Part shown: one piece after another, positions 3,649 to 52,313 of the stretch
Numbering within the stretch: the stretch's first letter is position 1
How the letters are laid out: each line of letters opens with the position of its first letter
NCBI GenBank assembly: GCA_036253495.1
Contig: GCA_036253495.1_4125.1
Strand: one strand, 5' to 3'
Length of the DNA: 64,000 nucleotides
DNA from: a phage
Position numbers and translations under genes: made by a program
Notes under the pieces: model-generated
Databases searched by the model: none
What the model was told of the DNA's origin: nothing
The model's input: the letters and a program-made list of their open reading frames with translations, nothing else

Positions 3649-4886
3649 ATAATAACAAATTTCTTGAACAAACAATTGTGAAGCACTTAGCAGGTTCACA
3701 AGCGTATGGAACCAGTACACCTGAAAGTGATACGGATTATCGTGGTATTTTTCTTGCTAACAAAGAGTTCATTCTGACACCTTTTTATAATGTAAAAGAA
3801 GTTTCTGATTCAAGAGAAGAAGATACTAAATTCTATGAACTAAACCAGTACTTAAGACTATACACAGAGGCTAACCCAAATATCCTTGAATCACTATGGG
3901 TTGATCCTGAACACATCGTAGAAAGTACTGAAATCTATGATTATCTACGTACATTCAATCAACAATTACTTAGTTCTAAGATCGCATTCTCTTATACCGG
4001 TTATGCATATAATCAGGTTAAACGTATGTCCAATCACCACGGGTGGATGGATAAAGAGCGTATTGCTGAAAAACGTCTAAATGAAATCTTAGAAGATTTT
4101 CCTGTAGATGAAACTTTAGCATGGATGTATGAAAACTTCCCACACTATTTGGTAGAACGTTTAGATACTTCTAAACTACATCCATTTAATGCTAAGAAAA
4201 TAGATTTTGAAAAATACATGCGTGATACTTCATTGCAGTTAGTTTCGACTCATCCGTTGAAACAGTATCATTTTGTACGTTTAGTACATAATTACAGTAC
4301 TGATAAAGTACTAGACCGTGATTTCAACTTATTGGATTATAACAATGGGTACGAATTAATTCATTACGGTGAAAATATCTTTGGTGTTATTATCAATCCT
4401 AATGAAAGTACAATTAACGCTGATGGTTCTTTACGTTATTTCAACAAAGAACGCAGTACTGAAGAATTGAAAGTGCGACCTGAACTCATTGTTAAATTCA
4501 ATGAAAAAGAATACAGTGAGAACAGTGAGAACCGTAAAAGTTATCACAAATGGAAAGAGAATCGTAATGCTAAACGTGCAATTCTTGAATCCAAACACGG
4601 CTACGATTGCAAACATGCTATGCATACGATCAGACTTTTGAATACAGCCGAAGAAGCATTACAAAGCGGTATTATCCTTGTTAAACGTCCTGATGCTGAT
4701 ATGCTAATGGATATCCGCAACGGTAAATGGAAGTATGAAGAAGTCATGGATTATTTCAATGAAAAGGTTGACTATATCCGCAATGTGGTGTATCCTAAGT
4801 CAGTTCTACCAAAGAAACCAAACATTCAACTAGCTGCAAAAGTTCTAATCGATATTCGAGAAATGCAGTGGTATGGTAAAAAATAA
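3645..4886 (+). CDS. Pol-beta superfamily nucleotidyltransferase domain protein
   Basis: N-terminal G-S-x9-S-D-T-D motif (LAGSQAYGTSTPESDTDYRGIF), typical of the Pol-beta/MNT nucleotidyltransferase fold; 413 aa. Confidence 0.55.
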   Translation: MNNNKFLEQTIVKHLAGSQAYGTSTPESDTDYRGIFLANKEFILTPFYNVKEVSDSREEDTKFYELNQYLRLYTEANPNILESLWVDPEHIVESTEIYDYLRTFNQQLLSSKIAFSYTGYAYNQVKRMSNHHGWMDKERIAEKRLNEILEDFPVDETLAWMYENFPHYLVERLDTSKLHPFNAKKIDFEKYMRDTSLQLVSTHPLKQYHFVRLVHNYSTDKVLDRDFNLLDYNNGYELIHYGENIFGVIINPNESTINADGSLRYFNKERSTEELKVRPELIVKFNEKEYSENSENRKSYHKWKENRNAKRAILESKHGYDCKHAMHTIRLLNTAEEALQSGIILVKRPDADMLMDIRNGKWKYEEVMDYFNEKVDYIRNVVYPKSVLPKKPNIQLAAKVLIDIREMQWYGKK

Positions 4887-4895
4887 GAGGATTAT

Positions 4896-5321
4896 ATGCT
4901 GAATTCAACAATTATTGATGCACTACGTGTACTGAATCGCGAAGTTAGCCGTATCCATAAAAGTACTGATCGTTATAAAGTAATGCATGAAATTAAACTA
5001 GAATTAGAAGCTATCAATAAGGGTGAATGGTTCCTTGAACCAGAATACCGTACACGTGGACCAACTGACGTTGAGAAAGCAATTGCAAAATTCATTTCTG
5101 GACGTTATGGTGATGTATCAGAGGCAGATGTACTGATGAATTTACATTTAACCTCCTTAGAAATTGAAGAAAAATTCAAATTTGATTCACTGGACTGGGT
5201 AGAAATGATCATGGAACTTGAAGATGAATTTAAGGTTGAGATCGAAGATAAGTATGAATCTGGAGATACCAGAATCGTGCATCTCGTTGAACATGTACAA
5301 ACAATGATCGATAAACGCTAA
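4896..5321 (+). CDS. acyl-carrier-protein-like (PP-binding-like) domain protein
   Basis: C-terminal half carries FDSLDWVEMIMELEDEFKVEI, resembling the ACP DSL(D)xVElvMalEeeF motif with the Ser that is phosphopantetheinylated in ACPs. Confidence 0.45.
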   Translation: MLNSTIIDALRVLNREVSRIHKSTDRYKVMHEIKLELEAINKGEWFLEPEYRTRGPTDVEKAIAKFISGRYGDVSEADVLMNLHLTSLEIEEKFKFDSLDWVEMIMELEDEFKVEIEDKYESGDTRIVHLVEHVQTMIDKR

Positions 5322-6718: not shown

Positions 6719-7075
6719 ATGAAATCAAAAATCTTTTTACCACAGTTAATGTGGCATCTTGCAGAGTTAGATGAAGATGATGTGTATACTGACTATGGTA
6801 CATGGGATGACAGTACTGAAACCTTTGGTCCAGATGTGCAGTACAAAATCATTTACAATGAAAGTAAAGGGCATAGACGATTTACTGAAGAATTTGATCT
6901 TGTTTTTCTTGACATGAACGAGAACAAGTATTATCATTGTACGTATGAACGAGGTTTAACAGAATATCGACCACAACGACCATTCGAGTATGAAACGGAT
7001 GGTGTTAAGTGCAATGAAGTTTCTGTTACCAGAGAAGAAATTATCACTTATAGAACTTTGTGGAAATATGTGTAA
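6719..7075 (+). CDS. hypothetical protein
   Basis: ORF following the terminator; no recognisable motifs. Confidence 0.5.
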   Translation: MKSKIFLPQLMWHLAELDEDDVYTDYGTWDDSTETFGPDVQYKIIYNESKGHRRFTEEFDLVFLDMNENKYYHCTYERGLTEYRPQRPFEYETDGVKCNEVSVTREEIITYRTLWKYV

Positions 7076-7474
7076 TGCTTAAAGATTTAGATTTTTCAAA
7101 CTTAGAAATTGTTAGTGCTGTGAAAAATATCTCTGACATGGGAGACGAAAAGACAGTACTGTTAACTATTACATTTGTCAAAGAAGAAGATAGTTATTTA
7201 CATCTTACAGGTATTGAAGAACTAATTCATAAAACTAATCTACAAGATAATGGGAAGTTTATTAAGCTTCAGGCTTCCTATACGAAAAAAAACGTCAAAT
7301 TTTGTAGACCTAAATAGTGTAGTCAAGGTGGTATTCAATCACCCTGAACAAAAGTACAGAAATGTGTCACGCAATGAGACAGATGCCAGTACTCTACAGC
7401 TTCTTCAGGATATTGAGTTCATTGAAACAGTATTTGAACGAAGCAGCAAAGAATTGAAAAAAGTTTATATGTAA
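7075..7474 (+). CDS. hypothetical protein split across two frames at an A8 run (7285-7292)
   Basis: ORF 7060..7317 (probable ATG at 7075, TAATG overlap) and ORF 7250..7474 overlap in adjacent frames exactly at aaaaaaaa; one fewer A gives a single ~133-aa ORF. Confidence 0.35.
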
Positions 7475-7475
7475 T

Positions 7476-7504
7476 TGGGACAATACTTTATATTGTGCTA
7501 TAAT
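7476..7504 (+). promoter_or_regulatory. promoter with extended -10 (TGGGAC-17-TATAAT, TGcTATAAT)
   Basis: Same architecture as the sites at 18991 and 37855; lies directly upstream of an ORF-free region. Confidence 0.5.
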
Positions 7505-7510
7505 TATATT

Positions 7511-8050
7511 GTAATGGAAAATGTCAGTGGACGTTTTAACAACGGACAAGAAGAACCTACTTCTCTTGAAAATGTAAAGGATAGATGAGCCTTCCCACTG
7601 AGGCGATGAGCAAAAGAAACCCGTTAGTACCATCCAAGTGCATTCATACAAACGCGAAATAAGACACGGATCACACGGCGACACGGCTCAATAAAGAACT
7701 CCGATAAGCATACAGAGAGTTCCTCGATAGATGTATAAGGATCGCACCTTACCAGATTTGCTAAGGGAGTTTTACTTAAAACAAGCGGTCAATTTTTCTA
7801 CGGGAAAGTTGCACCCAAAATTTGAGTAAAACGAGTACTGAATTGATCGAATAGTTCCAGTACTTTAGTGCAGGGGATGAAAATACCTGCGACCGTTGCA
7901 TATGACTGCGATAGAGAGAAACAGAGCAACCCGCTTTCGTTCTCCAAAAATTGGACACCCTTGATCCGTCCAAAATATGGAGAAATTCGCAATTCGATAA
8001 ATTCCGATGCCATCAGCGTCAAAATCAAGAACCTTAATTGGTTCTTTTTT
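7511..8050 (+). ncRNA. candidate structured non-coding RNA (~540 nt), unclassified
   Basis: Bounded by the promoter at 7476-7504 and the terminator at 8027-8050; only short mutually overlapping ORFs on both strands; GC about 41-48% against a visibly AT-richer background; local hairpins such as gcagg-ggatgaaaata-cctgc. Confidence 0.3.
8027..8050 (+). terminator. rho-independent terminator
   Basis: aagaacc-ttaatt-ggttctt hairpin followed by TTTTTT. Confidence 0.5.
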
Positions 8051-8194
8051 AATATCATTCCCCTGCGGGGGGATGAAAATGTCCTCAACAAATCCCGTCA
8101 ATCTTTAAAAGTACAATACAATATTAATTAATATGAATGAGTGAGTTATCGTAGATAACGAAACGAATTCTTGAGTTACGAGAGAACGAAGTGA

Positions 8195-9123: not shown

Positions 9124-9145
9124 ACTATAAAAAAAGAGGTTGACT

Positions 9146-13493: not shown

Positions 13494-13628
13494 ATGATGA
13501 AAGGATTAAAGAAATTTGGATCGGATTTTGTTAAGTGTATTCGCTACACTTATGATGCAAATCCAGAAATGACCGCCATTGTCGGTGTGTTTATTACATT
13601 AGTTGTGTTAAGCTTTGTAGTGGTGTAA
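13494..13628 (+). CDS. small membrane protein (44 aa)
   Basis: Unlisted short ORF with AAGGAAA RBS and a hydrophobic C-terminal segment. Confidence 0.25.
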   Translation: MMKGLKKFGSDFVKCIRYTYDANPEMTAIVGVFITLVVLSFVVV

Positions 13629-13631
13629 AAT

Positions 13632-14042
13632 ATGATTGAAATGGAAGGAACTCTGGTGTATGATCCAGACCGTGGCACTATGAAAAAGAAGAAGGACTTC
13701 TGGTTAGTACTGCAACTTCCATTACAGTTGGTTAGATACTACCAGTACTTCATCAGAACTGATCTCCACATTGATGTTAAAGACCCACAATGGGGAGCAC
13801 ACGTCAGTATTGTTCGTGGTGAAGTGCCACCAAATCCAGAGTACTGGAAAAAGTACGATGGTCAAAAAATTAAAATAAAATTCAATCCTGATATTGTTCA
13901 AGTGAAAGATAAAAAGAAACCAGGCTCGTTCTTTATCATAGAGTTCGATGATGAATTCATTGGACACATTCGCAATGAACTAGGATTACAATCAAAGTAC
14001 TTACGTTATCACCTCACAGTAGGGAGAACGTACTACGACTAA
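13632..14042 (+). CDS. 2H phosphoesterase family protein (Acb1-like / LigT-like candidate)
   Basis: Two H-x-S/T motifs (AHVSIV and YHLTVG) about 70 residues apart in a 136-aa protein. Confidence 0.45.
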   Translation: MIEMEGTLVYDPDRGTMKKKKDFWLVLQLPLQLVRYYQYFIRTDLHIDVKDPQWGAHVSIVRGEVPPNPEYWKKYDGQKIKIKFNPDIVQVKDKKKPGSFFIIEFDDEFIGHIRNELGLQSKYLRYHLTVGRTYYD

Positions 14043-14289: not shown

Positions 14290-15216
14290 TTGACAATAGC
14301 GATACAAACACCTAAAACTAAGACAGCTATAGGCTTATTAGTTTCACTTGTTATCATCGCTGCGTTTGGATTTTATGGTTTTTCTCAACATGATCGTGCA
14401 TCATCATCGGGCGAAAGTCAGGTGCACAATTTAAAACCGCAAGTTACACAAATTCAAAAGCAGGAATTACCTAAAGGGTATACACCTAAAGTAGTTCCAG
14501 GCAGCGAGAAACATTATACTGTTGAATACGGTGATAGTTATCATTCGATAGCTAAGAAGTTTAAACCGCATAATGTGTTGTTTGAAGATTACGTTACAGT
14601 ATTGAAGAATATCAATCTTAATGCTAAACTTCATACATCGCAGGGTATCTTTATCCCAACAAAAGAGGATTTGAAAGACGTACTGTTACCTGATGTGGTA
14701 GTACTTTTCGATTATAATGATCCTGAAATAGTAGCACACATCAAAGAAGCTGAAGGTTCAATTGAATTTCAGTCCAAGAACAAAAGACGTTTACTTGGGG
14801 GAAAAGTTGGAGTTCCTTTCTACAATTCAAAATTTCATCCTTATAAGGATATGAAAGGTAACTACACAATCGCATATGGTCACTACCTCGGTCCACGTGA
14901 ATCAGATGCTATAAAATATAGGAATGGTATCACAGTTACTGAAGCCCATAACTTGTTACTCACTGATATGAAAAGAATCAATGATGAATTGATTCTATTA
15001 TTGAAGAAGAAAAATGCAACATATCTCACAGTTGAACAACAAATAATACTATTTGATATGGCATTTACTTTAGGTATTAATAAGCTCAATACTTTTAATA
15101 AGTTATGGAAAAGTGTTGAAAAAAGGAATGCAAAAAAGTTTAAAAAAGAAATTAAGAATTCACTATGGTATAGACAAGTTGGGAAACGTGGGGAATTATT
15201 AGTTAATAATTTGTAA
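14290..15216 (+). CDS. membrane-anchored LysM plus T4-lysozyme-like (GH24-like) protein
   Basis: TTG start 7 nt after AAGGAGG; N-terminal TM; LysM-like YTVEYGDSYHSIAKKF; C-terminal YKDMKGNYTIAYGH...WYRQ resembles the T4 lysozyme core. Confidence 0.6.
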   Translation: MTIAIQTPKTKTAIGLLVSLVIIAAFGFYGFSQHDRASSSGESQVHNLKPQVTQIQKQELPKGYTPKVVPGSEKHYTVEYGDSYHSIAKKFKPHNVLFEDYVTVLKNINLNAKLHTSQGIFIPTKEDLKDVLLPDVVVLFDYNDPEIVAHIKEAEGSIEFQSKNKRRLLGGKVGVPFYNSKFHPYKDMKGNYTIAYGHYLGPRESDAIKYRNGITVTEAHNLLLTDMKRINDELILLLKKKNATYLTVEQQIILFDMAFTLGINKLNTFNKLWKSVEKRNAKKFKKEIKNSLWYRQVGKRGELLVNNL

Positions 15217-15220
15217 TTAT

Positions 15221-15244
15221 AGGGATGTTTAACATCCCTTTTTA
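15221..15244 (+). terminator. rho-independent terminator
   Basis: agggatg-tttaa-catccct hairpin followed by TTTT. Confidence 0.6.
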
Positions 15245-15260
15245 ATCGGAGTTTTAGATT

Positions 15261-15893
15261 ATGCTATATAATATTGGTATTATGGACGTACCTGGTGATG
15301 GTAACATAAAATCTCCTGATAATAAAATATATAAAACATGGTGTTCAATCTTTGTTAGATGCTATTCGCCAATATCACTAAAAAAACGCCCAACGTATGA
15401 ATTAACCGAAGTATGTGATGAATGGAAACTATATTCAAACTTCAAAAAATGGTATATAAGTAATTATATAGAAGGTTACTTTCTTGATAAAGATATTATT
15501 GATGGTACTTCTAATATTTACTCACCATATACTTGCTCGTTTGTTCCAAACATTATAAATTGTTGTATTTTGGATGGGAATTCAAAAAACTCTAATCTAC
15601 CAATTGGTGTTCATTATAGACCGAAAGGGAAAGATATGGTCAACGAATTTTCGAATCCATATCAAGCAAGACTCTGGAAATATAAAAAACGTGTATCACT
15701 CGGATGTTATCCTACACCATATGATGCACATAAAGCGTGGCAATTTGGTAAGAAAGAATACTTATTAGAATTGATTAACGACTATAGTGATAAAGTTACC
15801 CCTGAAGTTGTTGTCGGTTTACAACGTAGAATTGATATACTAACCGATGATATAAAAAAATGTAGAATTACAAATTCAATCAGTAAAATATAG
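15261..15893 (+). CDS. hypothetical protein, possible AP2-like DNA-binding / homing-endonuclease-like
   Basis: GVHYRPKGK...YQARLW...LGCYPTPYDAHKAW resembles the AP2 domain pattern; no HNH catalytic motif seen. Confidence 0.4.
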   Translation: MLYNIGIMDVPGDGNIKSPDNKIYKTWCSIFVRCYSPISLKKRPTYELTEVCDEWKLYSNFKKWYISNYIEGYFLDKDIIDGTSNIYSPYTCSFVPNIINCCILDGNSKNSNLPIGVHYRPKGKDMVNEFSNPYQARLWKYKKRVSLGCYPTPYDAHKAWQFGKKEYLLELINDYSDKVTPEVVVGLQRRIDILTDDIKKCRITNSISKI

Positions 15894-15898
15894 AGAGG

Positions 15899-16237
15899 TT
15901 GTATATGCTAAATCTAGTTATTCAAGGTAATGTTGATATTACTCCAGCAATCCATGACGCAATTCATCAAGAAGCAAACACTCTAAATAAATTTAGTGAT
16001 TCTTCAGTACTGAATATTGGTGTTCATGTGAAAAAAGAGCATAAGACACAGTACGCAGTAACTTTAACATCAGGTGGTAAGTCTGTTACTGCCGATGATG
16101 CAGATTTATACAAGGCGATTGTCGATTCATTCGAAAAAATGGAAACTGTATTCAGTAAAGACAAAAGCATTAAATTGCACCGCCGAAACCATCCAGACCG
16201 TCCAGTTGTAGTTGATGTAACTGACGAAGAAGAGTAA
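15899..16237 (+). CDS. hypothetical protein
   Basis: ORF followed by a terminator. Confidence 0.5.
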   Translation: MYMLNLVIQGNVDITPAIHDAIHQEANTLNKFSDSSVLNIGVHVKKEHKTQYAVTLTSGGKSVTADDADLYKAIVDSFEKMETVFSKDKSIKLHRRNHPDRPVVVDVTDEEE

Positions 16238-17872: not shown

Positions 17873-18985
17873 ATGAAAAAATACCTTGTTGGTGGATACT
17901 GCCGCGACCGTCTAATGGGCATTCGTGCAAAGGACAAAGATTATGTCATTGTTGGTGCAACTGAATCTGATATAAAATACTTAGAAAGTATTGGATATAA
18001 ACAGGTTGGTAAAGATTTTCCAGTTTATCTAAGCCCAGAAGGTAACGAACACGCATTAGCCCGTACTGAACGAAAAACTGGTACTGGATACGGTGGCTTC
18101 GAAGTGGATACAAAAGGTGTAACACTGGAACAAGATTTGTATCGTCGTGATCTTACAATTAATGCAATCGCGTATGATCCAGTACTGCAAATTCACATCG
18201 ACCCATACGGTGGTAAAGCTGATATCAAGAATAAAGTACTACGCCATGTATCCGAGCACTTCAAAGAAGATCCATTGCGTGTATTACGTCTAGCTCGCTT
18301 TGCTACGCGTTATTCTGATTTCTCTATACACGAGACTACTGAAGCACTTGCAATCGATATGGTAGCGTCTGGTGAGCTAAATCACCTTGTTCCAGACCGT
18401 GTTTATGTTGAATTTGAAAAGGCATTGTCAGAAGAGAAGCCAGCTAAGTTCCTTAAAACACTAAGTAAGTTGGGTTACTATGAAAAAGCATTTAATGCTA
18501 CATTAACCAAAAAGTCATTGGAACTCATTGATCATATCTCTGATAATTGTACTGAAGCATATAAGCCATATTTCTTATGGTCTGTGCTTCTTGAGAAAGA
18601 AGAAGTTGGCGAGGATTCAGTACTGAATGGTGCTATTAAAATGCCCGTTAAGTACGTTAAATTCAGTAATTACATCAAACGTTTCCGTGATGATATCAAG
18701 GCATTCCGTAAAAAGACCCCAAATGAAATGGGACAATTATTACTGGATATGAATATCAAGAATAACGGCGGTGAAGAATTCCTTTACAAAGTACTGGAAT
18801 ATTTTATTCTACGTAAAGAGATTGATTTAGACCTTGAAGATTTAATCATTAAGGTATATGATCGTTACACTGATGTAGTACTTCCAGATATTCAACAACT
18901 GGTAAAAGACGGTGAGTTAGAAGCATCTGAAATCCGTGATTTTGTTTCAGATTTACGTTGTGAAGCAATTCAACAAATGTTTTAA
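17873..18985 (+). CDS. tRNA nucleotidyltransferase (CCA-adding enzyme) / poly(A) polymerase head-domain family
   Basis: LVGGYCRDRLMG...DKDY head-domain motif and RRDLTINAIAYD; ATG at 17873 after GGGAGA. Confidence 0.75.
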   Translation: MKKYLVGGYCRDRLMGIRAKDKDYVIVGATESDIKYLESIGYKQVGKDFPVYLSPEGNEHALARTERKTGTGYGGFEVDTKGVTLEQDLYRRDLTINAIAYDPVLQIHIDPYGGKADIKNKVLRHVSEHFKEDPLRVLRLARFATRYSDFSIHETTEALAIDMVASGELNHLVPDRVYVEFEKALSEEKPAKFLKTLSKLGYYEKAFNATLTKKSLELIDHISDNCTEAYKPYFLWSVLLEKEEVGEDSVLNGAIKMPVKYVKFSNYIKRFRDDIKAFRKKTPNEMGQLLLDMNIKNNGGEEFLYKVLEYFILRKEIDLDLEDLIIKVYDRYTDVVLPDIQQLVKDGELEASEIRDFVSDLRCEAIQQMF

Positions 18986-20328: not shown

Positions 20329-20808
20329 ATGATACATGAACATAGCGGCAATCTGTTTGATTTATTCAGTACTGTTACTGATGATCAAACCGCGTTGCAT
20401 ATAATCGCTCATGGTTGTAATGCACAGGGTAAGATGGGTTCGGGTTTTGCAAAAGAATTAAGAAAGCGTCACCAATTGGCATATGATGTGTATCATACAC
20501 GTTATACCAATCAGAATGGTTTGAAATTGGGTGAAGTTGTCTATGCAGCACCAAATAATAACTTAATTATTGCAAACTGCATTACACAAGAGTATTATGG
20601 TAATGATGGTAAGAAGTATGTAAGTTATGATGCGATTGACCTTGCATTTAACTCGATGAATGAATTCATTAAAAATGAACCACAAGAGATCCATGTACAC
20701 TTCCCGAAAATTGGAGCCGATTTAGGCGGTGGTAACTGGAACGTTATCAAAGAAATCATTGACCACAGGCTGGTTAATGCTGAAAAACATTTATATATTC
20801 TCAAATAA
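20329..20808 (+). CDS. macro-domain-like protein (ADP-ribose binding/processing candidate)
   Basis: ALHIIAHGCNAQGKMGSGFA resembles the macro-domain AIVNAAN..L.GGGGV..AI loop, with a later Gly-rich FPKIGADLGGGNW segment. Confidence 0.4.
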   Translation: MIHEHSGNLFDLFSTVTDDQTALHIIAHGCNAQGKMGSGFAKELRKRHQLAYDVYHTRYTNQNGLKLGEVVYAAPNNNLIIANCITQEYYGNDGKKYVSYDAIDLAFNSMNEFIKNEPQEIHVHFPKIGADLGGGNWNVIKEIIDHRLVNAEKHLYILK

Positions 20809-22582: not shown

Positions 22583-22591
22583 AATAAAAAA

Positions 22592-40630: not shown

Positions 40631-40656
40631 GGGAGACATTTGTCTCCCTTTTTTTA
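40631..40656. terminator. bidirectional rho-independent terminator
   Basis: gggagaca-tt-tgtctccc hairpin with T-runs; sits between convergent genes. Confidence 0.65.
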
Positions 40657-43497: not shown

Positions 43498-43536
43498 AAT
43501 ATTTCCTCATTTAAAATTAAATTATTTACAATACAG

Positions 43537-43556
43537 TGCGGGGAAAACCCCGCACC
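43537..43556 (-). terminator. intergenic hairpin (possible terminator/attenuator)
   Basis: gtgcgggg-aaaa-ccccgcac stem-loop between the giant fibre gene and the next gene. Confidence 0.35.
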
Positions 43557-43563
43557 ATTTATA

Positions 43564-46500
43564 TTAAGCAGTACGTTGTGCAATAAACATATCTACTACT
43601 GGGCTGTATCCATCATAAATCAACTGAATGATACTAACTGTATTTTGTGTTTTGTTAATCTCACCACCTACTACTGCATAAGTACCATCAGTGATAAGTT
43701 CACGTCCACCAGTTGCATCTTGTTGTACGTAGATATAGTAAGAACCAGCCTTACCACTTCCAATCAATCCGTTAATTGGACCTAGTGTAGTTGATGCTTG
43801 GTCTAGTGTAATATAGTACACATTAGACTCACCATCAGGTGACCATGTTCCTTCACTTGGAGCAGCAACAGATGCCTGTACTTTAGCAGCAGGTGTAACA
43901 GCATACTTTTTAGTAGTTACACTTTCAGTTACTAAATCAGCAATATCTGTATGTAGTGTGCCTTCAATAGTCACATCTTTAGCAAATGTTGCATTTTCAG
44001 CAAATGAAGATGTACCAGTAACTGTGATTGCATCAGCAGACGCAGAACCTAGTGTTACAGCACCTTTAAGGTTAGTAGCACCAGTAATTTCTGCACCACC
44101 CGCAACTACATTGAAGCCACCCGCAGTGATTTCGATACCACCAGTACTAACAGTTAGTTTCTTACCGATAGTAACAACATCAGATAGTGTAGTTGCACCA
44201 GTAACTGCTAGAGTAGTGTTAATCTTAGCACTTGCCATAGTTGCTAGGCCAGAAGTTGTAATAGTTGCAGTAGTTACTGCACCAGACGCACTAACGTTTG
44301 CACCAGACACATCACCAGTTGTAGTGATTGCACCATCACCAGCGTTGATTGTAGCACCATTAGTTGCAATACCACCTTTCAAAGTACTCAAACCTTCAGC
44401 AGTGATTGTTGAACCAACTGTTAGGGTTGTACCAGCAGCGATAAAGGTTGTAGAAGTTAGAGATTTAACTTCGACTGCACTTGCAGATTGGTCCAGTGTA
44501 CCAATAATCTTACCACTAACAGTAAAGTCGCCAGTAGTTACTGCGTTACCATTAACAGTTAGGCTGTTAGCTGTTGAACCTTGTGCACCGAATGTTGCAG
44601 CACGTGCGTGCATATCTTCATCAGTAGTAATATCCTCAACTGCGTGAATTGTGGTATTAGAAGTTAATGAGTTCAGGGAAATATCCTGACCAGCCAAATC
44701 TACTGAACCGTTAATATTACCAGCAACAAATAGGTTACTACCAATATAAGTATCACCAACAAATTGGATAGTTTCCGGTCTTGAACTAACTTTAGGACCG
44801 ATGATAATACCTTTCGCAGAAATATCAGCTTTAGGCATAGTCACAGTAGACGCATCAGAGATGTTAACAGATGCACCATTAACAACCAAAGCACCACCAA
44901 CAGTCAAACCAGTAGTTACCGCTGCACTACCAAATGTACCTTTACCAGTTGTGGTAATTGTAGTACCAGTAATGTCACCAGCAGCAGTGATTGCGGTATT
45001 TGCACTAACAGCCAAACCACCAGTTAGAGTGCTTAGACCAGTAACTTCTAGTGTTTCTCTGGATTTCAAGCTTTTCGCATCAACTGGAGTAGTAGATAGA
45101 TCCAATGTTCCAGGGTTTAGTGTTCCATTAATGGTAACATCACCAGAAACTGTTAGTGAACTGAGAGCAGCTTCACCAGCGGTTAGTTTTCCAGTTAGAT
45201 TTGTAGTACCAGTAACAGCCAAAGCACCACCAGCACTTAGAGCACCAGTAACTTCCGCACTACTTAATGTAGCTTTACCACTTGTTGAAAGAGTAGTAGT
45301 GTTAGTACCACCATTTAGAGTTGAAACACCAGTAACAGTTAGTGTAGTACCAGCAGTTACAGAACCGAGTGCAGTTAAGTTAGCACTTGCATCAACACCT
45401 TCAACGTTTAGAACAGCAGAACCTAAGTTTAGGCTACCTTCAGGTGTAAATGCACCTTTAACAGTTAGGTCACCAGTAACAACTGCATCACCTGAAACAT
45501 CAACACTTGCTAGTGTTGCTTTACCAGAAGTTTGAAGAGTTGCGGATTGAACTTCACCAGTAGTTTTGATTAATGCAGAACCTGCATCAACACCACCAGT
45601 TAGAGTACTTAGTCCAGTAACGCCTAATGTTTCACCAATTGTCAAATAACCACCAACAGTTGCATCATTATCAACAGCTACACCAACACCAGTAGCACTT
45701 ACTTGGATTGATTTAGAAGTAATTTTACCACCAACATCAACAGTACCATCAAAAGTTGCAGCACCTACAGTATGTAGGGTTGAACTTAGTGTAGTTGCAC
45801 CAGAAATTGTTGGAGCACCAGTAATTGTACCAGTGGTTAGAATTAAGTCAGTACCAACTGTAGTACTTGTAGTACTTGCTAATGAGTTAGTTTCCAAATC
45901 AGCATTTGTGATAGTCAAGTTACCATCGATAGTAACGTCATTATCAACTTGTAGTGATTTAACAGTCAAATCAGTTGCACTAAAATCAACGGAAGTTGCA
46001 GTGAAAGCACCTTCAACGTGCAAATCACCAGTAACATCTGTTGGTTTAGCTAGTGTTATTTTATCTCCAGCACTTGTGTATGAACCAGCACTTACTGAAC
46101 CATCAACCACTGCCGCAGCAGCAACTTTCAAGTTTCCAGAAGCAACAGTCAAGCCACCTTTAGCAGTAATACCACCGACGTTTACAGTTACTGCGTTACC
46201 AAATGTTGAAGCACCAGTAACTTCAAGTGCACCAGTAACGGTCGCTTTACCACCGACTGTTGCATCACCAGTAACATTCAATTTACCAGCGGTTGCTTCA
46301 GTACTTGTTAGTTTTGGTAGAATACTTGGTTCAGTATTTTCAGTAACAGTAATAACACCAGAAGAAGTTAGTGATTTAACAGTTAGATCTGCCGCAGCAG
46401 CATTAATTGCACCATCAACAGTTAAGCTTCCACCAATGGTTGCACCTTCAGTTGTTGTTAATGATTTAGAACTGATATCAACTGGGCTTAAATCTAATCC

Positions 46501-50141: not shown

Positions 50142-52313
50142 TTATGGAAGTGTAATGTATGTAATTGGGGATTCGGCTAACAATGGAGTCCCATCAGGGA
50201 AAGCAGTTTTTATTTCATCTGCTATATCAATGCAAAATACCGAGTTGACCACGTATGTAGCTCGTGTTATATGAGTGTGGAGATCAGTTCCATTTTCACC
50301 AGCACCAGGAATTACAATTCTTGTACCTGCTGCTTTAGCATATTGGTTTGTACCCCATGCAGTGTTATGTGTTCTAATAGTTTTAGCACCAACTACTGCT
50401 GCTTTAAGCTGTTCATATTTTCCTACGAATGCACCAGCTACTGTTACTACATATTTACCCCCAGATTGTTTGTGTAAAATTGTTCCTTTGGGGAAATATC
50501 TACCACCTGGGAATTCATCATAAGGTAGATAATATTGCTCCGTGACTGGTATCAGTACTGGGCCACGGTGACCAGTTCCATCTATTTCAGTTGTTACCGT
50601 GAAGTTATTACCAGATTGATCTATTCTATCAACATACATTCGTGAGAATGAATAATTTGATATATTAGCGTCATCTTGAACTATATTACCAATCCAACTG
50701 GTATATGTATAATTAGTTCTGGTATAAACGCCACCACCTTCACCATCTTGATATTGACCAATTACATCTAAATTTTTTGTATAAATTTTACTGAATTTTG
50801 ATGATGATGGTAATCCACGCCAATATAATTTTTCACAAGTTATATTGTGCATATCAGTTTCGTTAGTCCATGCGTTTGCACCGGATGTGTATATTTCTAT
50901 ACTAGATTCAGGAATGAAAACGTTTTGAACTTTAAAATCTTTTGGTGGACCTGCATACCATGCATATTGGTGTGTTGCATCAGCAGGGTTAACACCCCAT
51001 GTAAATTTAATCATTCTGTTTGTTGGTGCAGTTGCTGGATCATCCAAATAGCGACCAGTTAATCCGTCAACAACAAAATCTTGACATCCATAAGTGATGA
51101 TACCTGCGGCAGTTAAGCCAGTTCCAGTTGATATTGTGGTTGATGGATATGTCTCATTATCTATTATATTAAAATTCTTACCGACTTCAACGTGTATACA
51201 TTGACGACAGTTATATACTCTATTTCGAGCAATAGTGAAGTTTTTAACATATTGACTATCTGGGATATCAACTCCATATGGACCTTTACCAGCAACACCG
51301 ATACCGATACCCCAGTTTGATAGTGGGATTGGAGCGTTAGTACCATCAACGTTTTCAATATGGTTTCCTTCAATGATTAGACCATCAGTGAAGTGTCTTG
51401 AAACTACGTTTAATTCAATACCATCACCATAGATATCGTGAATATGGTTATATGCATAGCGAGCATATTTTACTATTTCACCACTACCACCTTGCTGTAG
51501 AACACCAAAGTTAACATCGTACATTTCATTGAAACAAAAGTCGAGAATACCCTCTGAAGTTAAATCACGCATAAAGAATGCACAGGTGAATGTTGTACCA
51601 TAAAAGCGGTTGAAATAGAACTTACCATTACCACCAGAAAACTGAATATAACTACGAGCAATGTTTGCCCCTTGTATTTTACAGTTGGTTGCTGATATCA
51701 TTGTTTTACCAGTGCCAGTTAATGTGCCACCATACCATTCAATATTTTCAAAATATATTGCTTTGGATAAACGATAAACACCTTTACCTTGTATTTGGAT
51801 ATCATGAGCTTTAGCGTAATCAGCACAAGCTTGAACTGCGTCAGTATCATCAGCAATACCATCACCGATAGCACCAAATTCTTCAGGTGTTATATAATAC
51901 AAAGCTTGTTGTAGTGTTCCACCAGAAACCAAACCAATATAATCAGAACCATTAGTACTGGATAATACTTTAGTATTAACATACATTGATTTTATCCATG
52001 CACCATTCTTCTTAGCGAAAATATCTAGGATACCACCACTTTCTTGGTCTAATTGCAAATAAGTATAATTATTCTTACCAAGACTATTATCTGGGATTTC
52101 ATTCCCAAATAATACGGTTGGGTGGTCAGCGAGATACTTTGCAGTAATCGCTGAATTATCATTAATCGGTTCACCAACTTGTACGGGCAATAAGATGCTT
52201 CCGAAACTATCTGTAATAGACAGGGAATTGTTAGCATAATTAATTAATGCCCCATTTTTACCAAGTATAAACTTGGTTTTCATTGTCCCTTCAAAGTTAG
52301 AAAAAACTGCCAT
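50142..52313 (-). CDS. tailspike with pectate-lyase-like beta-helix (putative polysaccharide depolymerase)
   Basis: ITPEEFGAIGDGIADDTDAVQ resembles the Pectate_lyase_3-type motif; shares the N-terminal anchor MAVFSNFEGTMKTKFILGKNGA. Confidence 0.6.
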   Translation of the reverse strand: MAVFSNFEGTMKTKFILGKNGALINYANNSLSITDSFGSILLPVQVGEPINDNSAITAKYLADHPTVLFGNEIPDNSLGKNNYTYLQLDQESGGILDIFAKKNGAWIKSMYVNTKVLSSTNGSDYIGLVSGGTLQQALYYITPEEFGAIGDGIADDTDAVQACADYAKAHDIQIQGKGVYRLSKAIYFENIEWYGGTLTGTGKTMISATNCKIQGANIARSYIQFSGGNGKFYFNRFYGTTFTCAFFMRDLTSEGILDFCFNEMYDVNFGVLQQGGSGEIVKYARYAYNHIHDIYGDGIELNVVSRHFTDGLIIEGNHIENVDGTNAPIPLSNWGIGIGVAGKGPYGVDIPDSQYVKNFTIARNRVYNCRQCIHVEVGKNFNIIDNETYPSTTISTGTGLTAAGIITYGCQDFVVDGLTGRYLDDPATAPTNRMIKFTWGVNPADATHQYAWYAGPPKDFKVQNVFIPESSIEIYTSGANAWTNETDMHNITCEKLYWRGLPSSSKFSKIYTKNLDVIGQYQDGEGGGVYTRTNYTYTSWIGNIVQDDANISNYSFSRMYVDRIDQSGNNFTVTTEIDGTGHRGPVLIPVTEQYYLPYDEFPGGRYFPKGTILHKQSGGKYVVTVAGAFVGKYEQLKAAVVGAKTIRTHNTAWGTNQYAKAAGTRIVIPGAGENGTDLHTHITRATYVVNSVFCIDIADEIKTAFPDGTPLLAESPITYITLP

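What the first reader, a model, noticed from the sequence alone, without database searches (positions are those of the whole stretch)
7075..7474. A8 homopolymer separates two overlapping small ORFs that would fuse into one gene
ORFs 7060..7317 and 7250..7474 overlap in adjacent frames, and the frame switch coincides with aaaaaaaa at 7285-7292. With seven A's the frames join into a ~133-aa protein. This could be a homopolymer sequencing error, phase-variable expression, or a slippage site.
Basis: seen in the sequence. Interest (0 to 1): 0.35.

Follow-up and report, generated by a model that had tools for sequence, protein, structure and literature searches.

The report
One phage gene split by extra A
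The two small overlapping ORFs are the two halves of one conserved jumbo-phage gene of unknown function (Pfam DUF7325), broken in this record alone by one extra A in a run of A's; this is an ordinary frameshift (a recent mutation or a base-calling error), not a programmed recoding site.

Summary
A8 lies at 7285-7292. ORF1 (true start ATG 7075, ends 7317) and the +1 frame running to 7474 join into a 132-aa protein if the run is A7.

The window is an Asteriusvirus (121Q/PBECO4/A4-like) jumbo coliphage. The two ORFs tile one Pfam domain, DUF7325 (profile 1-74 and 72-131 of 131), also phrog_9016. An AlphaFold model (pLDDT 89) shows a single compact alpha/beta domain that the break cuts after strand 3.

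The gene is one uninterrupted ORF of 129-132 aa in 69 of 70 phage records and in the 28 other protein clusters found. The one exception is a record flagged UNVERIFIED, with two T-run deletions elsewhere in the gene.

All 12 close relatives (at least 98% nt identity) and five independent assemblies, three of them at 80-275x word depth, carry A7. More distant relatives carry CAAAAAA or CAAAAAT, so the run is not conserved.

No stimulatory structure or Shine-Dalgarno (SD) sequence is present. ORF2 has no credible start of its own.

Verdict: a non-programmed A7-to-A8 expansion private to this record. I estimate a real recent slippage mutation at about 50% and a sequencing or assembly error at about 42%. 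The source reads are not in the run index, so I could not separate the two. Programmed slippage or phase variation is at most about 6%. Interest is low.

The parts
7075..7317 (+). ORF1 as written: 80 aa, made of 72 native residues of the DUF7325 N-terminal half (strands 1-3 and helix 1) plus 8 out-of-frame residues (NVKFCRPK) and a TAG stop. The ATG at 7075 overlaps the TAA of the upstream gene (TAATG).
   Evidence: Pfam PF24011 gives 116.7 bits over profile 1-74; phrog_9016 gives profile 1-75.
7285..7292 (+). The A8 homopolymer. It has one A more than the A7 of all 12 close relatives and is the site of the frame break.
7286..7474 (+). The +1-frame continuation: 62 aa plus stop, the C-terminal half of DUF7325 (strands 4-6 and helix 2). 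It is 100% identical to residues 71-132 of the intact relatives.
   Evidence: Pfam PF24011 gives 73.3 bits over profile 72-131. Searches also apply.
7250..7284 (+). The mechanical 5' extension of 'ORF2' (ATG 7250), out of frame over ORF1. It has no SD sequence and no homology, so it is not a real start.
   Evidence: the alignment shows homology beginning only at the KK of the run.
6719..7075 (+). The upstream gene (118 aa, phrog_6343, function unknown), translationally coupled to the DUF7325 gene. The same pair occurs in all relatives.

Best explanation
The stretch 7075-7474 is a single gene of the DUF7325 / phrog_9016 family. This family is a core gene of RaK2/121Q-like jumbo phages, normally 129-132 aa, of unknown function. 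In the lineage of phage A4 and this window, a C-to-A change turned the ancestral C-AAAAAA into an A7 run (Gln-Lys became Lys-Lys). In this genome alone the run has gained one more A (A7 to A8). This is the typical product of strand slippage by the DNA polymerase on a homopolymer.

The insertion shifts the frame after residue 72. As written, the gene yields an 80-aa stub that lacks strands 4-6, helix 2 and 7 of the 27 invariant residues. The C-terminal half has no start of its own and is not expected to be translated. The event is very recent, because the read-through product is still 100% identical to an intact relative's protein. It is not a programmed recoding signal.

What is shown: one gene, one private extra A, no conservation of the run, and no stimulatory elements. 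What is inferred: that the extra A is in the phage DNA and not only in the record, and that the stub is non-functional.
For: Gene unity. The two halves tile Pfam PF24011 at positions 1-74 and 72-131, and phrog_9016 likewise. The AlphaFold model has pLDDT 89 and pTM 0.82 and is one domain with elements from both halves. Both halves are under purifying selection in relatives, with dN/dS of 0.04-0.25.

One ORF everywhere else. This holds in A4, 121Q, PBECO4 and Turkey5, in the 28 other protein clusters, and in 69 of 70 phage records by tblastn.

Private A8. Twelve loci with at least 98% identity all carry A7, and distant ones carry A5 or A6 after a C. Logan contigs of five runs all show one A 'left out' at 7285, three of them at 80-275x word depth. 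No indexed run holds the A8-specific 31-mers.

Recent event. The read-through equals P0005 residue for residue.

Real mutation rather than error. Of 75 A4 genes mapped onto the window, only this one is broken. The three other A8 runs agree with A4, and so do all other A7/T7 runs except the two that are themselves private expansions (9129, 61553) and the strain-polymorphic run at 22586. The window's other three private 1-nt indels (9129, 20811, 61553) are all intergenic, although 61 of 79 A/T runs of at least 6 bases are coding. That is the pattern expected after selection, not from random miscalls: P is about 0.04 for at most 1 of 4 falling in coding sequence. High-depth assemblies of relatives show the same kind of private +1 intergenic expansions (X3 at 40648, 55815 and 61523).
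Against: The source reads could not be inspected, so an error in the record is not excluded. The gene is conserved intact in every other good-quality genome and is under purifying selection, which makes a viable knock-out somewhat unexpected and favours an artefact. All four private 1-nt indels of the window are +1 expansions of A/T runs, which could also be a systematic over-call. The sequencing platform of the record is unknown.
Confidence: 0.5

Rival explanations
1. Sequencing or assembly artefact. The phage really carries A7 and an intact 132-aa gene, and the eighth A is a homopolymer over-call in the deposited consensus.
For: All 12 close relatives and five independent assemblies have A7. 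The gene is intact in 69 of 70 records and under purifying selection. The read-through is 100% identical to an intact protein. The only other broken copy (CMSTMSU, flagged UNVERIFIED_ORG) is broken by two T-run deletions of the error type. All four private 1-nt indels of the window are +1 homopolymer expansions.
Against: The rest of the 64-kb window is clean. Seventy-four of 75 mapped genes are intact, and the three other A8 runs plus the coding A7/T7 runs agree with A4. The private indels avoid coding sequence, as real selected variation does. High-depth assemblies of relatives show equivalent private +1 expansions, so such changes do occur in these phages.
Confidence: 0.42
2. Programmed or adventitious recoding. 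The A8 is real, and full-length protein is made from it by +1 ribosomal slippage of tRNA-Lys on AAA AAA A, or by RNA polymerase dropping one A, so that the locus yields both an 80-aa and a 132-aa product.
For: The run is a slippery sequence in principle, and a +1 shift on it would restore exactly the relatives' sequence ...TKKTSNF.... Rescue of interrupted genes by slippage at A/T runs is documented in bacteria (PMC4256274, PMC1088944, PMC5009743).
Against: The run is not conserved: A7 in-frame in close relatives, C-A6 or C-A5-T in others. No orthologue has the two-frame layout. There is no SD-like element upstream, and the 80 nt downstream fold no better than shuffles (z = -0.31). The 0-frame tail (NVKFCRPK) has no homologue. 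In a GFP reporter study, E. coli RNAP gave no detectable rescue by 1-nt deletion on the poly(A) runs tested, and insertion slippage was undetectable below A8 (PMC6260861). A -1 shift gives only KKKRQIL-stop.
Confidence: 0.04
3. Phase-variable (contingency) tract. The A-run switches the gene on and off within phage populations of the A4 clade.
For: A7/A8 runs are mutable, and the A4 clade acquired a longer run than its relatives through a C-to-A change.
Against: Twelve of 12 close relatives from different samples and countries are A7. None is A6 or A8, and no indexed public run carries the A8 words. A7 is short for a contingency tract. The run encodes an ordinary Lys-Lys in a variable loop.
Confidence: 0.02
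4. Two genuine separate small genes that overlap.
For: Both ORFs are open as written.
Against: Orthologues are single ORFs. The two pieces tile one Pfam domain and one predicted fold. ORF2 has no SD sequence, and its first 12 codons have no homology.
Confidence: 0.01

Closest known systems
DUF7325 (Pfam PF24011) / phrog_9016 genes of RaK2-like jumbo phages: A4_510, 121Q gp515, PBECO4 AGC34737, phAPEC6 gp308c, RaK2_00013, CBB_166
   Same: The sequences match: 98.5-100% identity to the A4-clade proteins once read through, with HMM scores of 117 and 73 bits against a cut-off of 27. The position is the same, directly after the phrog_6343 gene with an overlapping stop/start and before the roughly 700-bp gene-free region. 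The length is the same if the run is A7.
   Different: Here the ORF is interrupted after codon 72 by one extra A. The 'structural protein' label on 121Q gp515 and a few copies is unverified. CBB_166 and phAPEC6 gp308c are annotated only as hypothetical, and neither number appears in the main text of the two virion-proteome papers.
Ordinary homopolymer frameshifts in phage records (pseudogenes or base-calling errors), e.g. the DUF7325 copy of Escherichia phage CMSTMSU (MH494197, UNVERIFIED_ORG)
   Same: A single-base length change in an A/T run splits an otherwise conserved gene, and the neighbours and relatives are intact.
   Different: CMSTMSU has two deletions at other sites (T6 to T5 and T5 to T4) in a record flagged as unverified. 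The window has one insertion in an otherwise clean 64 kb.
Rescue of interrupted genes by transcriptional slippage at A/T runs (Citrobacter rodentium tssM, PMC4256274; IS-element transposases, PMC1088944) and programmed frameshifts such as dnaX or the phage tail chaperone G/GT
   Same: A run of A's lies at the junction of two overlapping frames.
   Different: Those sites are conserved among orthologues or longer (from my own knowledge, typically at least 9 A/T for host RNAP), and they often have stimulators. Here the run is private, only 8 long, needs a 1-nt deletion or +1 shift, and has no stimulator.

Membership tests
Pfam DUF7325 (PF24011) / phrog_9016 | HMM match above the curated gathering score | tested here: met
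   ORF1 scores 116.7 bits (profile 1-74) and the +1-frame piece 73.3 bits (profile 72-131), against a cut-off of 27. phrog_9016 gives E 5.9e-35 and 1.2e-16.
Pfam DUF7325 (PF24011) / phrog_9016 | A single uninterrupted ORF of about 129-132 aa covering the whole domain | tested here: not met
   As written, the window has 80 aa plus a +1-frame remainder. Every other cluster is 129-132 aa, with one at 153. The gene is therefore a disrupted member.
Pfam DUF7325 (PF24011) / phrog_9016 | Conserved genomic position: after the phrog_6343 gene and before the gene-free region and the DUF5856 gene | tested here: met
   Searches show the same order in A4, 121Q, PBECO4, Turkey5 and 11 further loci.
Programmed ribosomal frameshift or transcriptional slippage site | The slippery motif and the two-frame layout are conserved among orthologues | tested here: not met
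   A7 in-frame in 12 close relatives, and CAAAAAA or CAAAAAT in-frame in distant ones. Sixty-nine of 70 records give a single-piece match.
Programmed ribosomal frameshift or transcriptional slippage site | A stimulatory element: an upstream SD-like sequence, a downstream structure, or a hungry or stop codon at the shift site | tested here: not met
   There is no AGGAGG-like sequence before the run. The downstream 80 nt fold at -12.3 kcal/mol, z = -0.31. The next 0-frame codon is AAC, not a stop.
Programmed ribosomal frameshift or transcriptional slippage site | Both products are actually made | not testable with these tools
   This needs protein or RNA data from this phage. Reporter data in the literature argue against 1-nt deletion slippage by E. 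coli RNAP on A8 (PMC6260861).
Phase-variable homopolymer (contingency locus) | Tract length varies among closely related isolates | tested here: not met
   Twelve of 12 close relatives are A7, and only the window is A8. No indexed run holds the A8 words.
Phase-variable homopolymer (contingency locus) | Tract-length heterogeneity within one population (read level) | not testable with these tools
   The window's source run is not in the index, and Logan contigs drop minor variants.

The most novel reading that the evidence does not exclude
The A8 is real and the allele is leaky. Here +1 slippage of tRNA-Lys, or RNA polymerase deletion, on the A8 run restores a small fraction of full-length DUF7325 protein. 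This isolate would then carry a naturally attenuated, reversible (A8 to A7) allele of a core jumbo-phage gene, an incipient on/off tract created by the C-to-A change that lengthened the run in the A4 clade.
Probability: 0.04. Interest if true: 0.35.

Novelty: already known. Interest (0 to 1): 0.08.

Why it matters
It matters little beyond annotation. The two ORFs should be annotated as one disrupted DUF7325 gene (pseudogene or frameshift, 'sequence to be verified') and not as two hypothetical proteins.

If the A8 is real, it is a natural knock-out of a gene conserved in all RaK2/121Q-like jumbo phages. That would show the gene is dispensable for propagation on the isolation host, and it would offer a ready-made mutant for finding out what DUF7325 does. 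The family has a confident predicted fold with no neighbour among solved structures.

Tried and rejected
1. Read-level check. Three run searches and six lay-outs found only relatives. X1-X5 differ from the window by 1-24 substitutions per 0.7-1.7 kb. No run holds the A8-specific words, so the source reads are not available.

2. Exact-pattern scans of IMG/VR and JGI metagenome contigs for the junction, with any run length, gave 0 hits.

3. The window's own genome is not held. The NCBI contigs behind L007 and L011-L013 are not held either. The E. coli genomes and plasmids collections gave no match. The exact look-up of the 80-aa product found nothing.

4. Rfam gave no family anywhere in the window at gathering score.

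5. Function of DUF7325. No paper mentions the name. PDB sequence hits were only to artificial alphaRep (HEAT-like) binders over residues 13-48, with no stretch passing on its own. I rejected these because the model puts beta strands there. Foldseek against PDB gave nothing below E 0.08, with TM at most 0.30. BFVD returned only family members and unnamed phage proteins.

6. The records listing 'hypothetical protein (x3)' under the match were suspected of being split too. They are intact, and the third feature is a small ORF call in the downstream gene-free region.

7. -1 frameshifting was rejected, because the -1 frame stops after 5 codons (KKKRQIL-stop; read).

Full report
**What is in the sequence.** One search shows the run aaaaaaaa at 7285-7292. 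One search lists ORF 7060..7317 and ORF 7250..7474, the second in the +1 frame relative to the first. The sensible start of the first ORF is ATG 7075, which overlaps the TAA stop of the upstream gene (6719..7075) as TAATG. This is the usual sign of translational coupling in phage gene trains.

In the first frame the run is read ACG AAA AAA AAC and the ORF ends 8 codons later (..TKK NVKFCRPK*). In the +1 frame it is read A AAA AAA ACG and continues ..KKTSNFVDL... to the stop at 7472-7474. With seven A's the two join into 399 nt, or 132 aa.

**What the window is.** The stretch is 99.1% identical to Escherichia phage A4 and about 82% identical to 121Q, PBECO4 and some 30 other Asteriusvirus jumbo coliphages. 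The rest of the window matches A4 at 94-99% with a few mosaic patches. No whole genome is held for the window. The protein database records its 80-aa product on a single contig of 352,052 bp.

**One gene, not two.** In A4, 121Q, PBECO4 and Turkey5 the same position holds one annotated 399-nt gene.
- ORF1 matches Pfam DUF7325 (PF24011) at profile positions 1-74 (116.7 bits). The +1-frame piece matches positions 72-131 (73.3 bits), against a cut-off of 27. phrog_9016 behaves the same way.
- The 28 other protein clusters found are 129-132 aa long, with one at 153. The window's 80-aa product is the only truncated member.
- tblastn of the intact protein against 50,697 phage records finds 70 records. 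Sixty-nine of them give a single full-length piece, spanning Asteriusvirus, RaK2/K64-1, Munch/SE_PL, GAP32, CBB, the Yersinia fHe-Yen9 phages, Erwinia phages and Xanthomonas XbC2.
- Both halves are under purifying selection between clades, with dN/dS of 0.04-0.25.
- An AlphaFold2 model built on 26 sequences is confident (pLDDT 89, pTM 0.82). It shows one compact alpha/beta domain: strands at 10-21, 25-36 and 63-72, a helix at 46-58, then strands at 83-88 and 93-98, a helix at 104-122 and a strand at 128-131.
- The frame break falls right after the third strand. It removes half of the domain and 7 of the 27 invariant residues (K84, Y94, D112, F115, F120, K128, Y131).
- 'ORF2' has no Shine-Dalgarno sequence before its ATG at 7250. 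Its first 12 codons are out-of-frame overlap with no homology. It is a mechanical ORF, not a gene.

**The extra A is private to this record.** In the DNA alignment the only length difference between the window and A4 is one A in the run.
- Twelve loci with at least 98% identity in the gene all have A7. They are A4, four whole phage contigs in assemblies labelled E. coli, five Logan contigs and two ENA metagenome contigs. PBECO4 and Turkey5 have C-AAAAAA and 121Q has C-AAAAA-T.
- Laying the Logan contigs of five runs on the window shows 'one letter left out at 7285' in each. Three of these runs are at 80, 240 and 275x word depth.
- A 60-base query in which 24 of 30 possible 31-mers are A8-specific found no run holding more than the one non-specific sampled word.
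- The A7 run itself is a novelty of the A4 clade (CAA Gln became AAA Lys), in a variable loop of the protein. The window has added one more A.
- Read through, the window's product is identical, residue for residue, to the intact protein P0005. The break is therefore either very recent or not real.

**Not a programmed site.** A recoding signal should be conserved. Here neither the run nor the two-frame layout is.
- The shift needed is +1 (or -2). A -1 shift gives KKKRQIL-stop.
- There is no SD-like element upstream and no hungry or stop codon at the site.
- The 80 nt downstream fold no better than shuffled sequence (z = -0.31).
- In a systematic reporter study, E. coli RNA polymerase showed no detectable slippage on runs shorter than T7 or A8, and none by 1-nt deletion on the poly(A) runs tested (PMC6260861).
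- Phase variation is not supported either, because 12 of 12 independent close relatives have the same length.
- The only other broken copy in the family is in phage CMSTMSU, a record flagged UNVERIFIED_ORG. It is broken by two single-T deletions at different sites, so the A-run is not a recurrent hot spot.

**Mutation or artefact?** This is the one point I could not settle, because the source reads are not in the index.

For an artefact:
- The gene is conserved and selected everywhere else.
- All four 1-nt indels private to the window (7285, 9129, 20811, 61553) are +1 expansions of A/T runs.

For a real mutation:
- Only this gene, of 75 A4 genes mapped onto the window, is broken.
- The three other A8 runs and the remaining A7/T7 runs agree with A4, apart from the two private expansions at 9129 and 61553 and the strain-polymorphic run at 22586.
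- The other three private indels are all intergenic, although 61 of the 79 A/T runs of at least 6 bases lie in coding sequence. Random miscalls would give at most 1 of 4 in coding sequence with P of about 0.04.
- High-depth assemblies of relatives carry the same kind of private +1 intergenic expansions: X3 at 40648, 55815 and 61523. Every single-base homopolymer polymorphism seen among these strains is intergenic or at a gene's stop codon, except 7285.

That pattern is what real slippage mutations filtered by selection look like, so the record's homopolymer calls seem generally trustworthy. I put a real recent A7-to-A8 replication-slippage mutation at about 50%, a record error at about 42%, and everything else at under 8%.

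**Function of the gene.** The function is unknown. The 'structural protein' label on 121Q gp515 and a few copies is not backed by anything I could find. The CBB and phAPEC6 orthologues are annotated only as 'hypothetical', and their numbers do not occur in the main text of the two virion-proteome papers. The model has no structural neighbour in the PDB (best E 0.08, TM at most 0.30). In BFVD it matches only family members and unnamed phage proteins.

**Verdict.** This is an ordinary disrupted gene. It should be annotated as one frameshifted DUF7325 gene and the run length verified. Interest is low.

Noticed in passing
window 7480-8194: The gene-free roughly 700-bp region directly downstream has a promoter-like site at 7475-7504. 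In the assemblies of relatives it breaks contigs and shows 2-5x the flanking word depth at about 7674-7931, so part of it is multi-copy in these genomes. Several records call small ORFs in it. Rfam finds nothing at gathering score.
   Followed up: partly
window 4885-4917, 13625-13642, 14886-15904, 17879-17906, 20464-20692, 43532-43881: There are mosaic differences from phage A4. The window lacks A4_503 and A4_504 ('putative tail fiber' and 'tail protein I', about 3.6 kb), A4_526 and A4_535. It carries a 211-aa ORF (15261-15893) absent from A4. Short patches in the lysozyme, macro-domain and long-tail-fibre genes are replaced by diverged sequence.
   Followed up: no
L007, L011, L012, L013 (GCA_011911785.2, GCA_012813795.2, GCA_025677605.1, GCA_973721985.1): Whole Asteriusvirus genomes (352-359 kb single contigs) sit inside public assemblies labelled Escherichia coli. 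In the matching runs the phage contigs have 80-440x word depth. This suggests jumbo phage co-sequenced with bacterial isolates, whether as a carrier state or as contamination.
   Followed up: no
window 9129, 20811, 22586, 28223, 34799, 40648, 55815, 61553: Single-base length polymorphisms of A/T runs between closely related strains are frequent, but all lie in intergenic spacers (ribosome-binding-site regions and terminator tails). Expansions at 9129 (A6 to A7), 20811 (A4 to A5) and 61553 (T6 to T7) are private to the window.
   Followed up: partly
L022 (MH494197.1, phage CMSTMSU) 301-700: The DUF7325 copy of this UNVERIFIED_ORG record carries two single-T deletions (T6 to T5 and T5 to T4) and is annotated as a 76-aa protein. 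It appears in BFVD as a truncated family member (A0A2Z5HGU8 is probably this entry).
   Followed up: partly
window 50478-52282: One relative (run X4) lacks 1,803 bases inside the region that A4 annotates as a colanic-acid-degrading tail protein. This is strain-level variation in a probable depolymerase gene.
   Followed up: no
window 7075-7474 (DUF7325 model m854e6aee8c4f): The family has a confident predicted alpha/beta fold (pLDDT 89) with no significant match among solved structures, so it may be an undescribed fold. phmmer hits to artificial alphaRep proteins over residues 13-48 appear spurious.
   Followed up: partly
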